Shown here piece after piece: positions 61,282 to 61,357 of a stretch of DNA of 64,000 nucleotides; within the stretch, counting starts at the first letter, position 1; the number at the start of each line of letters is the position of its first letter. The notes beneath the pieces are model-generated. The model did not search any database, had not been told where the DNA came from, and saw only the letters and a list, made by a program, of their open reading frames with translations. This stretch comes from a virus. The DNA lies in the UHGV virus genome UHGV-1364441; one strand, 5' to 3'. The translations under genes were made by a program, and so were the position numbers.

Positions 61282-61357
61282 GGTAAGGGTACTTCGTAGG
61301 GATTCGAACCCTCTGCCAAGCACGGCGATCTCCGACGTCGCAAAATACCCTTACCTG
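61282..61357 (-). ncRNA. tRNA-like element or tRNA pseudogene (T-arm-like hairpin enclosed by a long stem)
   Basis: AGGG-TTCGAAT-CCCT T-arm-like hairpin inside a 10-bp stem GGTAAGGGTA/TACCCTTACC (extendable to ~15 bp with one bulge); no cloverleaf or CCA. Confidence 0.35.

What the first reader, a model, noticed from the sequence alone, without database searches (positions are those of the whole stretch)
61282..61357. tRNA-like element (T-arm hairpin enclosed by a long stem) wedged between tRNA-Thr and tRNA-Ser
This element has a canonical TTCGAAT T-loop but no cloverleaf, anticodon arm or CCA, and it is closed by a 10-15-bp stem. It could be a decayed tRNA, or an RNase P-type processing signal or small regulatory RNA embedded in the tRNA operon; the P1 C4 immunity RNA is matured by RNase P.
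Basis: partly seen in the sequence, partly recalled or inferred. Interest (0 to 1): 0.45.

Follow-up and report, generated by a model that had tools for sequence, protein, structure and literature searches.

The report
tRNA-elbow cap on phage leader hairpin
The "tRNA-like element" is real but is not a tRNA or a decaying one: it belongs to a large, apparently undescribed family of long RNA hairpins that sit beside tRNA genes in the untranslated leaders of P1, lambda and many other enterobacterial phages, and this member carries a conserved tRNA-like tip.

Summary
On the minus strand, which is the tRNA strand, 61282-61355 forms a 15-bp stem. A bulged A and a 6-bp CACAAC/GUUGUG helix extend it. 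The stem encloses a perfect T arm (AGGG-UUCGAAU-CCCU) and has no anticodon arm and no CCA. ARAGORN and Rfam do not call it.

The window is a P1-like phage, and the element lies in the ban-operon leader 8 nt after tRNA-Thr. It is one member of a hairpin family with a constant ~13-bp stem (GGUAAGRGCAUUG/CAGUGCUCUUUCC) and CAAC/GUUG flanks. Covariation supports the stem, and G.U pairs exceed A.C pairs 125 to 6, which points to RNA on this strand. The caps are hypervariable. Members occur in lambda just after tR', in P1/P7/D6, and in P22-like and epsilon15-like phages. The window holds at least four siblings.

This cap is invariant across divergent phages while its stem covaries. Canonical T-arm hairpins occur in 10 of 69 independently sampled cap families, against 0.02 expected.

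Best reading: a transcribed, selected structural and processing module. I infer that the basal ~20-bp helix is an RNase III-type site and that the cap mimics a tRNA elbow. Neither step is shown. Decayed tRNA and classical RNase P substrate are disfavoured.

The parts
61357..61362 (-). 5' basal flank CACAAC. It pairs with GUUGUG at 61276-61281. 61363 is a single spacer nucleotide after the CCA of tRNA-Thr.
   Evidence: In alignment A1 these six pairs are 82-100% paired, with C-G to U-G/A-U/U-A changes.
61356..61356 (-). Bulged A between the basal flank helix and the main stem.
   Evidence: Present in nearly all family members as CACAAC-A-GG.
61341..61355 (-). 5' strand of the 15-bp stem, GGUAAGGGUAUUUUG. 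Positions 1-13 are the family's constant scaffold.
   Evidence: 10 of 21 outer-helix pairs show double (compensatory) changes, and 0 of 500 shuffles reach the observed value.
61326..61340 (-). D-arm-like segment CGA-CGUCGGAGA-UCG: a 9-nt loop with GG, resembling the tRNA D-loop pattern RGUCGGnnA.
   Evidence: Conserved in all 22 variants apart from C/U at one loop position and one G-to-A in a single contig (L075). The stem itself is not supported by nearest-neighbour thermodynamics, with pair probability <= 0.04. The resemblance to a D arm is my reading, not a test.
61313..61325 (-). Linker CC-GUGCUU-GG-CAG, in the place of the anticodon arm and variable loop. Its 6-7-nt loop is the only hypervariable part of the cap.
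   Evidence: Seven loop variants occur among 22 sequences: GUGCUU, GAGCUU, GAACUU/GAGUUU, AUUGCUG, AUUAUU, AUUCUU, AUGCA/ACUUGCU.
61298..61312 (-). T arm AGGG-UUCGAAU-CCCU, with canonical G53-C61 closure and a UUCGAAU loop.
   Evidence: Invariant in all variants, including nine recovered by a scan that did not constrain the cap. Pair probability is 0.25 in this variant and 0.65 in the P1/D6 variant, and the T-arm fold lies within 1.1 kcal/mol of the minimum free energy.
61282..61297 (-). Single A (61297) followed by the 3' strand of the 15-bp stem, CGAAGUACCCUUACC.
61276..61281 (-). 3' basal flank GUUGUG, the start of the conserved downstream module GUUGYGRUGAA plus a small hairpin.
   Evidence: (downstream flanks of 324 instances).
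61364..61518 (-). tRNA-Arg(UCU) at 61442-61518 and tRNA-Thr(UGU) at 61364-61439, immediately upstream on the same transcript.
61049..61130 (-). Sibling hairpin E2. Its stem GUUGAGAACACUG/CAGUGUUCUCAAC lies inside ACAAC/GUUGU flanks, giving about 18-21 bp. Its cap shares GUAACGGGKUCAUAUCCCAAUCUAC with a cap that P1-type contigs carry in the standard GGUAAGAGCAUUC stem.
61723..61791 (-). Sibling hairpin E0, upstream of tRNA-Arg. Its stem is GGCAAGGGCGCUG/CAGCGCCCUUACC, with a C.A mismatch at position 3, where most members have U.U.
   Evidence: P1 homologue at L003 3493-3561.
60705..60804 (-). Sibling hairpin E3, 7 nt after the CCA of tRNA-Ser. Its stem is GUUAAGAGUAUUUGG/CCAAGUGCUCUUACC. In lambda, the sequence that forms this cap sits in a different helix (GUUGUGCUG/CAGCACAAC).
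62321..62379 (-). Further long hairpin with CAAC/GUUG flanks and a 16-bp stem.
   Evidence: The search required the CAAC/GUUG flanks, so membership is weaker here.

Best explanation
The element is a transcribed, selected RNA module of the P1-type ban-operon leader. It is one member of a family of 'scaffold hairpins' that alternate with tRNA genes, terminators and other small structured units in the long untranslated leaders of enterobacterial phages. Examples are the lambda late leader just after tR', the Q-to-S interval of P22-like and lambdoid phages, the P1/P7/D6 ban operon, and an epsilon15-like moron.

The family has two parts.

(1) A constant basal helix. It consists of CAAC/GUUG flanks, a bulged A, and a ~13-bp stem GGUAAGRGCAUUG/CAGUGCUCUUUCC with a usually mismatched position 3 and a U.G pair at position 11. 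The total is about 19-21 bp. I infer that this helix is a double-strand-specific processing and stability element. It would most likely be cut by host RNase III, separating the tRNA precursors and the downstream mRNA and leaving structured ends.

(2) An exchangeable cap. In this member the cap is a compact mimic of the tRNA elbow: a D-loop-like GUCGGAGA loop plus a canonical T arm, with the anticodon arm replaced by a tiny variable loop. The cap is under sequence-level purifying selection. I infer that it folds through a T-loop/D-loop contact. It could then either make the excised ~60-75-nt hairpin a stable small RNA that host tRNA-elbow-binding factors recognise, or act as a rigid, nuclease-resistant cap.

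Shown: the structure, its conservation, covariation of the outer helix, the strand, family membership, exchange of caps, and enrichment of T arms among caps. Inferred: transcription as part of the operon, RNase III cleavage, the elbow fold, and any trans-acting role.
For: Identity of the region.
- It is 92-96% identical to the P1/P7/D6 ban operon.
- There is no promoter-like site near the element, and it is co-oriented with the flanking tRNAs.

Outer helix.
- 22 distinct variants: 95% of cells paired, 10 pairs with double changes, 0 of 500 shuffles reaching the observed value, and slid controls at 31-54% paired.
- Family-wide, in 106 distinct hairpins, positions 7, 8, 9, 10, 11 and 13 covary.
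- G.U/U.G pairs number 125 against 6 A.C/C.A. This fits RNA, or single strands, of the tRNA strand only.

Cap under selection.
- About 38 of 44 nt are identical in every variant, while a 6-7-nt loop inside the cap has seven variants and the enclosing stem covaries.
- The same invariance holds in nine sequences found by a scan that constrained only the scaffold.

Family and cap exchange.
- More than 200 IMG/VR stretches match the scaffold pattern, with 44 and 31 cap clusters in the two size classes.
- P7 carries a different cap at exactly this site after tRNA-Thr.
- Lambda carries a member at about 44787-44873, directly after tR'.
- The CUS-3 and HK629 members lie between Q/tR' and the holin gene.

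tRNA likeness is a family trait. Among loci brought in only by cap-independent scans, 10 of 69 cap clusters contain a canonical T-arm hairpin. Shuffled caps give 0.018 on average and at most 1 in 2000 shuffles. At least two other caps (the L254 type and L478) also show a D-arm-like hairpin with GG.

Structured context. The whole tRNA-Thr to tRNA-Ser spacer folds with z = -6.7.

RNase III. The helix length matches the roughly two-turn duplex that RNase III needs (established knowledge). [quoted passage not shown] 1988) exists, as shown by a reference list read.
Against: - No expression or cleavage data were available. RNase III cleavage of this hairpin is inferred.
- I could not read the 1988 paper, so I do not know that its sites lie in the lambda family member.
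- The position-specific RNase III preferences of Altuvia et al. 2018 are in a figure I could not access.
- If the helix were only an RNase III site, a large, sequence-conserved cap would be unnecessary. The cap's function is therefore unexplained by this step.
- The inner helices (T stem, D-like stem, CC/GG) never vary, so covariation says nothing about them.
- The D-like stem has pair probability <= 0.04, and in this window's variant the minimum-free-energy fold does not contain the T arm.
- Some stem 'compensation' could arise from recombination with other family members rather than from point mutation under selection.
- A crude co-orientation test with neighbouring ORFs was only weakly positive, 91 against 56 loci.
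Confidence: 0.5

Rival explanations
1. Decayed tRNA gene. The element is a pseudogene that lost its anticodon arm and is drifting, with no product of its own.
For: It has a perfect T arm and lies in a tRNA cluster. ARAGORN and Rfam do not call it. T-arm fragments could be raw material from neighbouring tRNA genes.
Against: - The cap is essentially invariant across P1-like, epsilon15-like and lambdoid phages, while the adjacent linker loop and the stem do vary.
- All 22 variants show the identical architecture.
- The stem is the conserved scaffold of a family whose other members have unrelated caps.
- No local tRNA shares the T arm.
- Ten further independent cap families keep canonical T arms.
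An origin from a tRNA remains possible. 'Non-functional' does not fit.
Confidence: 0.07
2. RNase P (or RNase Z/BN) processing signal. The element would be a bacterial 't-element' or mascRNA-like tRNA mimic, and the T arm would recruit the tRNA-end-processing enzymes to cut the polycistronic leader.
For: - The T arm is stacked on a helix. From established knowledge, this is the minimal RNase P and CCA-enzyme recognition unit.
- T arms are strongly enriched in caps and often sit directly before the scaffold 3' strand, as in tRNA.
- Position 3 of the scaffold is usually mismatched and is followed by CC on the 3' strand. This recalls a discriminator base plus CC paired to a leader.
- From memory, E. 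coli RNase P does mature non-tRNA phage RNAs such as P1 C4.
Against: - There is no NCCA; the 3' strand continues ...CC-GUUGUG.
- The 5' leader is paired into the helix.
- The distance from the T loop to the helix base or to the position-3 mismatch is 13-18+ bp in the T-arm caps I counted by hand, and 17-21 bp here. It is not the 12 bp of tRNA.
- Most family members have no T arm at all (59 of 69 clusters), yet they keep the same scaffold.
Confidence: 0.15
3. Trans-acting decoy or regulator. The excised hairpin would be a stable small RNA whose tRNA-elbow or tmRNA-TLD-like cap titrates a host factor. Candidates include SmpB, TruB/TrmA, a tRNA-directed defence nuclease, or RNase P itself. The hypervariable caps of the family would then be alternative 'payloads' delivered by one processing scaffold.
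For: - There is sequence-level selection on the cap.
- Caps are exchanged as cassettes between scaffolds and sites.
- One cap begins with a complete type I hammerhead core.
- Leaders that carry this cap often also carry a tmRNA-like tag template: 90 of 113 T-arm loci do, and the two lie within 100-300 nt of each other in seven non-P1 contigs.
Against: - There is no evidence for a discrete product or a partner.
- The association with the tag module is not obligatory: 12 of 41 non-P1 strands with the module had a T-arm cap, against 42 of 373 without it. The hairpin detection was loose and the sampling biased.
- There is no G3.U70 and no CCA, so it cannot itself be an alanine-accepting TLD.
Confidence: 0.15
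4. DNA-level element. The conserved inverted repeats would be 'boundary/linker' sequences that promote homologous exchange of modules between phages, or a protein-binding palindrome, with no RNA role.
For: The CUS-3 record annotates 'boundary sequences' flanking this interval. Caps and inter-hairpin units are clearly shuffled between phages.
Against: - Pairing is maintained by compensatory changes, which homologous exchange does not require.
- 125 G.U pairs against 6 A.C pairs means only one strand can form the helix.
- The annotated boundary sequences lie beside the hairpin, not on it.
Recombination at the conserved stems may still be a consequence of their conservation.
Confidence: 0.08
5. 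Coding sequence. The plus strand here would be the 3' part of plp ('putative lipoprotein'), as annotated in P1.
For: The P1 records annotate plp across the element and into tRNA-Thr. The window has a 135-aa TTG-start ORF at 60986-61393 on the plus strand.
Against: - Neither plp, upl nor the window ORF has a Pfam match.
- The ORF overlaps tRNA-Thr by 30 nt and spans two long hairpins.
- D6 and most plasmid annotations call no gene here.
- P7 replaces the cap with an unrelated, shorter sequence at the same site.
- Substitutions follow base-pairing, not codons.
Confidence: 0.03

Closest known systems
Long hairpin of the phage lambda late-operon leader, directly after tR', and the reported RNase III processing of the lambda late transcript (Daniels et al. 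1988, Virology 167:568)
   Same: It has the same flanks (CACAAC-A ... GUUGUG), the same scaffold stem (lambda GGUAAGAGCAUUG/CAGUGCUCUUUCC; here GGUAAGGGUAUUU/AAGUACCCUUACC), the same position after an RNA 3'-end signal, and the same downstream grammar.
   Different: The lambda cap (AGUCGAUAAUCGUGAAGAGUCGGCGAGCCUGGUUAGC) has no T arm. Here the hairpin follows a tRNA in an early, C1-controlled operon of a myovirus. I verified only the title of the 1988 paper, not that its sites fall in this hairpin.
tRNA-like processing signals: plant mitochondrial t-elements and MALAT1 mascRNA (from memory)
   Same: These are non-aminoacylatable tRNA mimics embedded in longer transcripts. They keep the T arm and an acceptor-like helix and lack a normal anticodon arm.
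   Different: Those elements keep the 12-bp acceptor-plus-T-stem geometry and are cut by RNase P and RNase Z. Here the helix is 15-21 bp, the leader is paired, and most family members lack a T arm.
Bacterial and phage Y-RNA-like YrlA (Rfam RF02553)
   Same: A long stem formed by the two ends of the element, plus a tRNA-like module with T and D loops. The class includes phage-encoded examples (from memory).
   Different: The Rfam YrlA model does not match the element; its only weak hit, 24 bits, lies on the tRNA-Thr/Arg junction. In YrlA the long stem occupies the anticodon-stem position, whereas here it occupies the acceptor position. I recall E. coli lacking the Ro/Rsr partner, but I did not check this and made no search for rsr in the window.
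Stable non-tRNA RNAs inside phage tRNA clusters: T4 species 1 and 2 (rnaC, rnaD) (from memory)
   Same: Small structured RNAs of unknown function, co-transcribed and co-processed with phage tRNAs.
   Different: No sequence relation was tested. The T4 RNAs are not built on a shared scaffold hairpin with exchangeable caps.
tRNA-like domain (TLD) of tmRNA
   Same: A T arm plus a reduced D region without an anticodon arm. A tmRNA-like tag template lies in the same leader (61886-61918, minus strand).
   Different: There is no free acceptor end, no CCA and no G3.U70. The long helix is at the acceptor position, not the P2 position. ARAGORN finds no tmRNA, and there is no homology to E. coli ssrA outside the tag.

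Membership tests
Canonical tRNA gene | Cloverleaf with an anticodon arm, recognised by tRNA finders | tested here: not met
   ARAGORN finds no gene at 61282-61357. Rfam tRNA and tRNA-Sec models give no hit even at E <= 10. Only 13 nt lie between the D-like segment and the T arm.
Canonical tRNA gene | T arm with G53-C61 closure and a UUCRANY loop | tested here: met
   AGGG-UUCGAAU-CCCU at 61298-61312.
Canonical tRNA gene | 7-bp acceptor stem ending in a discriminator base plus CCA | tested here: not met
   The stem is 15 bp plus 6 bp. The 3' strand is followed by GUUGUG, with no CCA.
Phage leader scaffold-hairpin family (defined here; includes the lambda post-tR' hairpin) | Constant ~13-bp stem GGUAAGRGYAUUK/…CUYUUNCC, maintained by covariation | tested here: met
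   Here the stem is GGUAAGGGUAUUU/AAGUACCCUUACC. Family pair table; A1 statistics.
Phage leader scaffold-hairpin family (defined here; includes the lambda post-tR' hairpin) | CACAAC(A) 5' flank, and a GUUGYGRUGAA 3' flank followed by a small hairpin | tested here: met
   This window's downstream type, GTTGTGATGAAGTGCAGCTC..., is the commonest, at 73 of 324 instances.
Phage leader scaffold-hairpin family (defined here; includes the lambda post-tR' hairpin) | Sits a few nt after a tRNA 3' end, terminator or hairpin, on the transcribed strand of a long untranslated leader | tested here: met
   It lies 8 nt after the CCA of tRNA-Thr. Upstream contexts are listed, and annotated examples are.
RNase III substrate | Roughly 20 bp (two turns) of mostly uninterrupted intramolecular duplex | tested here: met
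   6 + 15 bp with one bulge.
RNase III substrate | Staggered double cleavage in vivo that depends on rnc, and the position-specific base-pair preferences | not testable with these tools
   No expression data were available. The preference matrix of Altuvia et al. 2018 is in a figure that is not held. The 1988 lambda paper is not held.
RNase P / RNase Z substrate (tRNA-like processing signal) | 12-bp coaxial acceptor-plus-T-stem ruler, unpaired 5' leader, 3' NCCA | tested here: not met
   The distance from the T loop to the helix base is 20-21 bp. The leader CACAAC is paired. There is no CCA. Other T-arm caps give 13-18 bp, counted by hand.
tmRNA tRNA-like domain | Free acceptor end with CCA and G3.U70, continuous with a tag-coding RNA | tested here: not met
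   The first three pairs are G-C, G-C and U-A, with no CCA. ARAGORN finds no tmRNA. The tag-like ORF is about 560 nt upstream, with two tRNAs in between.
YrlA / Y RNA-like | Match to the family covariance model; Ro (Rsr) gene nearby | tested here: not met
   RF02553 does not hit the element. The neighbourhood was not searched for rsr.
P1/P7 C4 antisense RNA | Match to the Rfam C4 family | tested here: not met
   No C4 hit in the window at gathering threshold, and none at E <= 10 in 60200-62400.

The most novel reading that the evidence does not exclude
Enterobacterial phages, including lambda and P1, would carry a previously unrecognised system of 'RNA cassettes'. One constant double-stranded scaffold, cut by a host dsRNA nuclease, would present or release dozens of interchangeable small structured RNAs. 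This would be a bacterial-virus analogue of a pri-miRNA-type scaffold.

Many of these small RNAs would be tRNA-elbow mimics. In this element the payload would be an anticodon-less mini-tRNA that acts in trans on the host tRNA or trans-translation machinery, for example SmpB/tmRNA, RNase P, TruB/TrmA or a tRNA-directed defence nuclease. It might work together with the tmRNA-like tag template (ANDDLMMVAA) encoded in the same leader.
Probability: 0.12. Interest if true: 0.9.

Novelty: new variant of a known kind. Interest (0 to 1): 0.6.

Why it matters
P1 and lambda are among the best-studied genomes in biology, yet this interval is either unannotated or annotated as doubtful ORFs (plp, upl, orf-64).

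If the reading is right, the leaders that carry phage tRNA genes are organised RNA islands. They would be built from one reusable hairpin scaffold with exchangeable caps that often resemble tRNA.

Consequences:
- It gives a concrete, testable model for how polycistronic tRNA/mRNA leaders of temperate phages are processed and stabilised.
- It explains a class of mosaic 'boundary' regions at the RNA level.
- It corrects gene annotation in hundreds of P1-like plasmids.
- It points to candidate small RNAs that might interfere with host tRNA biology: tRNA-elbow mimics, a hammerhead-bearing cap, and tmRNA-like tag templates.

If the caps turn out to be passive, the result is still a new Rfam-type family present in 340 of 5426 complete E. 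coli genomes, counting one cap type alone.

Tried and rejected
1. The genome-contig scan with GGAGATCN{10,22}GGTTCGAATCC was too loose. It returned 120 real tRNAs and chance hits from unrelated phyla and no new copies.
2. The viral scan with GAYGTCGGAGATCRCC returned almost only chance matches in GC-rich coding DNA. One truncated copy (L192) was seen.
3. I looked for family members in the Q-to-lysis intervals of E. coli K-12 prophages DLP12 and Qin, in order to use K-12 RNase III data sets. There are none.
4. I tried to read Daniels et al. 1988 and the Casjens and Hendrix lambda review. Neither is held. Further literature searches found no description of the hairpin sequences, of a P1 tRNA-like element, or of the tag peptides.
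5. I tried to apply published RNase III in vivo rules. The matrix is only in a figure.
6. I searched for a parent tRNA among 329 tRNAs predicted in all fetched phage loci. None has the same T arm.
7. I tested whether the tag-like module is a diverged full tmRNA. ARAGORN finds no tmRNA.
8. A crude ORF-based co-orientation test gave only 91 against 56 loci. I do not rely on it.
9. The 12-bp RNase P ruler and a 'discriminator plus CC' reading of scaffold positions 1-3 were considered. I rejected them as a general rule because the helix lengths are inconsistent.
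Full report
1. The observation.

The four tRNA genes of this part of the window are on the minus strand: Met/Ile2-CAU 60324-60399, Ser-UGA 60812-60898, Thr-UGU 61364-61439 and Arg-UCU 61442-61518. Read on that strand, 61355 to 61282 is GGUAAGGGUAUUUUG-CGACGUCGGAGAUCG-CC-GUGCUU-GG-CAG-AGGG-UUCGAAU-CCCU-A-CGAAGUACCCUUACC.

The first and last 15 nt pair, with two U.G pairs. Beyond a bulged A, the flanks CACAAC (61362-61357) and GUUGUG (61281-61276) add six more pairs. The T arm equals the tRNA consensus. The fold is stable: -31.8 kcal/mol, z = -3.76. ARAGORN and Rfam, at gathering threshold and at E <= 10, report nothing here. There is no anticodon arm and no CCA.

The relevant strand is the minus strand. 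The closing helix is about 21 bp. The element abuts tRNA-Thr (8 nt after its CCA), while tRNA-Ser lies 384 nt further on.

2. Where we are.

The region is 92-96% identical to the ban operons of phages D6, P7 and P1. In those phages a C1-controlled promoter, Pban, drives a long leader (dicF-like region, tRNA-Asn, tRNA-Thr..., tciA-C, tRNA-Ile), followed by the helicase gene ban.

No sigma-70-like promoter is found near the element. In the P1 records the element lies inside the annotated plp CDS on the opposite strand, and that CDS even overlaps tRNA-Thr. Neither plp, upl nor the equivalent 135-aa ORF of the window has a Pfam match. The same 116 nt occur in 488 PLSDB plasmids, almost all unannotated there.

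3. Relatives outside P1.

A distant BLAST found an 86% copy in Enterobacter phage BUCT554, an epsilon15-like Uetakevirus, in the leader of a small moron between the terminase and portal genes. A pattern scan of IMG/VR gave 109 stretches and 30 distinct core sequences. In the non-P1 contigs the element follows an intrinsic terminator or a small hairpin rather than tRNA-Thr.

I aligned 22 distinct variants. About 38 of the 44 cap nucleotides are identical in every sequence. The exceptions are a 6-7-nt loop with seven variants, C/U at one loop position, C/U (A in L090) at one linker position, and single substitutions in single contigs. The enclosing helix shows 10 pairs with changes on both sides. 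It is 95% paired against 31-54% for slid controls, and 0 of 500 shuffles reach the observed value. Position 14 alone shows U.G, A-U, G-C and C-G.

My first scan required the D-like and T-loop motifs, so it could not show that those motifs are invariant. However, nine T-arm-type sequences were recovered by a second scan that constrained only the stem, and they show the same invariance. A decaying pseudogene would not behave like this.

4. The stem is a shared scaffold.

In CUS-3 and HK629 the same flanks and stem (cacaacaGGTAAGAGCATTG ... CAGTGCTCTTATCgttgtgg) enclose an unrelated cap. That hairpin lies between the Q antiterminator/terminator and the holin gene, which is the late-operon leader.

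These fall into 44 and 31 cap clusters.

Across 106 distinct hairpins the 13-bp stem is maintained with covariation at positions 7-11 and 13. Position 3 is usually mismatched (U.U) and position 11 is usually U.G. G.U pairs total 125 against 6 A.C, so only the tRNA strand can form the helix. The selected object is therefore RNA, or less plausibly single-stranded DNA of that strand.

Rfam has no family for these hairpins. RefSeq annotates nothing at the 340 E. coli genomes that carry the CUS-3-type member.

Phage lambda itself has a member at about 44787-44873, immediately after the 6S RNA terminator tR'.

The window contains at least four more hairpins of the same grammar (and my reading):
- 61723-61791, upstream of tRNA-Arg.
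- 61049-61130.
- 60705-60804, 7 nt after the CCA of tRNA-Ser.
- 62321-62379.

The whole tRNA-Thr to tRNA-Ser spacer folds with z = -6.7.

5. Caps are exchangeable.

- P7 has a different cap at exactly this site, with the same flanks and the same neighbours.
- Some P1-like contigs carry the T-arm type and the P7 type in tandem.
- The cap of the window's post-tRNA-Ser hairpin is, in lambda, enclosed by a different helix.
- The cap of hairpin 61049-61130 recurs in the standard scaffold in P1-type contigs.

6. tRNA likeness recurs.

I counted only loci fetched by the cap-independent scans. Among them, 10 of 69 cap clusters contain a canonical T-arm hairpin (4 bp, G-C closure, UUCRANN loop). Shuffled caps give 0.018 on average and never more than 1 in 2000 shuffles. 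The T stems differ in sequence. The T arm often sits directly before the scaffold's 3' strand, as in tRNA. At least two other caps (the L254 type and L478) also have a D-arm-like hairpin with GG.

So the tRNA-like tip of our element is a selected theme of the family and not an accident.

Within the element, the inner helices never vary, so covariation is silent about them. By nearest-neighbour energies, the T-arm fold is within 1.1 kcal/mol of the optimum, with pair probability 0.25 here and 0.65 in the P1/D6 variant. The D-like stem is not favoured. An elbow contact, if it exists, would be tertiary and is untested.

7. Mechanism.

Shown: a conserved, strand-specific, roughly 21-bp helix with a sequence-constrained tRNA-like cap, placed at the junctions between tRNAs, terminators and downstream units in untranslated phage leaders.

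Inferred, first step: the helix is a double-strand-specific processing and stability site, most simply for host RNase III. Its length fits. RNase III processing sites in the lambda late transcript are on record, at least by title (Daniels et al. 1988, cited in PMC7547250). I could not read that paper, so I do not know whether its sites fall in this hairpin.

Inferred, second step: the cap folds into a compact elbow. It would then either make the excised hairpin a stable small RNA recognised by tRNA-elbow-binding proteins, or serve as a rigid, nuclease-resistant tip.

The classical RNase P/RNase Z model fits poorly. There is no CCA, the leader is paired, and 13-21 bp stack on the T stem where tRNA has 7.

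A purely DNA-level 'boundary sequence' role does not explain the covariation or the G.U bias. Recombination at the conserved stems probably does explain the cap shuffling.

8. Comparison and novelty.

The closest known object is the lambda post-tR' hairpin, together with the RNase III processing reported for the lambda late transcript, if the two coincide. Functionally similar ideas are tRNA-like processing signals (t-elements, mascRNA), YrlA-type tRNA mimics, the stable RNAs of the T4 tRNA cluster, and the tmRNA TLD. Membership tests for tRNA, RNase P substrate, TLD, YrlA and C4 all fail on at least one defining feature.

I found no description of the family, its exchangeable caps or its T-arm enrichment. 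The searchable literature is incomplete, so I rate it a new variant of a known kind (structured processing hairpins / tRNA mimics) and not categorically new.

9. Side observations.

The same leaders hold a 10-codon tmRNA-like tag template. In the window it is ANDDLMMVAA at 61886-61918 (minus strand). Elsewhere it reads ANEEMYLAVA, ANDEQFLAVA, ANDDVVLMAA and similar. It is present in 132 of 355 loci. No tRNA-like acceptor was detected, and I found no homology to ssrA outside the tag.

One lambda-like contig has a scaffold hairpin whose cap starts with a complete type I hammerhead core.

These observations suggest that the leaders are RNA-gene islands. They motivate the more novel reading given separately.

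Noticed in passing
window 61886-61918 (minus strand); context 61880-61990: A tmRNA-like tag template lies just after a strong terminator-like hairpin (62002-61985). It reads GUAAAU-GCA AAC GAU GAU CUG AUG AUG GUA GCG GCC UAA, i.e. ANDDLMMVAA* (E. coli has ANDENYALAA). Pseudoknot-like GC-rich repeats follow it.

Rfam gives only weak tmRNA_permuted/alpha_tmRNA hits (23.6 and 10.9 bits). Frame-preserving variants (ANEEMYLAVA, ANDEQFLAVA, ANDDVVLMAA and others) occur in 132 of 355 fetched phage loci.

No tRNA-like acceptor domain was found. There is no ssrA homology outside the tag, and no literature hit.
   Followed up: partly
window 60812-60898 (minus strand): tRNA-Ser(UGA) has an unusual fold. 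The Rfam general tRNA model misses it, while the tRNA-Sec model scores 46.6 bits against a gathering score of 47, with a 9-bp acceptor stem and a 6-bp D stem. The D6 record notes that tRNAscan-SE cannot type it. It looks like an 'allo-tRNA'/Sec-like structure with a serine anticodon.
   Followed up: no
window 61442-61518 (minus strand): tRNA-Arg(UCU) replaces the tRNA-Asn(GUU) of P1/P7/D6. It has the same acceptor stem and T arm (GATGGTG...GGTCGGTGGTTCGAATCCACCCACCATCGCCA). Only the anticodon arm and part of the D loop differ, as if the anticodon arm had been swapped.
   Followed up: partly
window 61049-61130, 61723-61791, 60705-60804, 62321-62379 (all minus strand); also the long hairpin at about 61992-62101: Further long hairpins of the same grammar lie in the same leader. 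Rfam's spurious miRNA-precursor hits (mir-5985, mir-3622 and others) at E > 0.01 mark two of them. The hairpin at 61992-62101 has a 17-bp perfect stem and lies in what the P1 records call the 'dicF-like region'.
   Followed up: partly
L309 7780-7975 (minus strand), a lambda-like late leader in IMG/VR: A scaffold hairpin has a ~170-nt cap that begins with a complete type I hammerhead core: stem I CGCGC/GCGCG, then CUGACGAG, stem II GUCC/GGAC, GAAAC, stem III with GUC at the cleavage site. Rfam Hammerhead_1 scores 24.7 bits, below the gathering score of 34.
   Followed up: partly
window 60582-60702 (minus strand): An STnc100-like stretch (38.5 bits; gathering score 47; 50.3 bits in a P1-like contig) begins exactly at the GGUGAAU-plus-hairpin module that follows the post-tRNA-Ser scaffold hairpin. 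The Rfam family STnc100 may therefore be one of the inter-hairpin units of these leaders.
   Followed up: no
L003 (P1 AF234172) 2590-3159; window ORF 60986-61393 (plus strand): The P1 genes upl and plp, and lambda orf-64, are annotated over these structured leader RNAs. plp overlaps tRNA-Thr and the element on the opposite strand. There are no Pfam matches, so they are probably not genes.
   Followed up: partly
L002 (P7 AF503408) 3138-3192 (minus strand in the locus): At the position of the element, right after tRNA-Thr and before the same GTTGTGATGAAG module, P7 carries a scaffold hairpin with an unrelated 29-nt cap (CUCCCUUAUAGGGCUUGGCUUAAAUGCAUCGAG type). Some P1-like contigs carry both hairpins in tandem.
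   Followed up: yes
window 60220-60320 (minus strand) and L004 (BUCT554) about 3170-3260: A further shared non-coding module, GGCRUAUGGCACAUGYGUCGU(U)AGCGGUC...GGUAGCCGGAAUGUGCAAG, follows tRNA-Met in the window. In BUCT554 it lies upstream of the T-arm hairpin. Its function is unknown.
   Followed up: no
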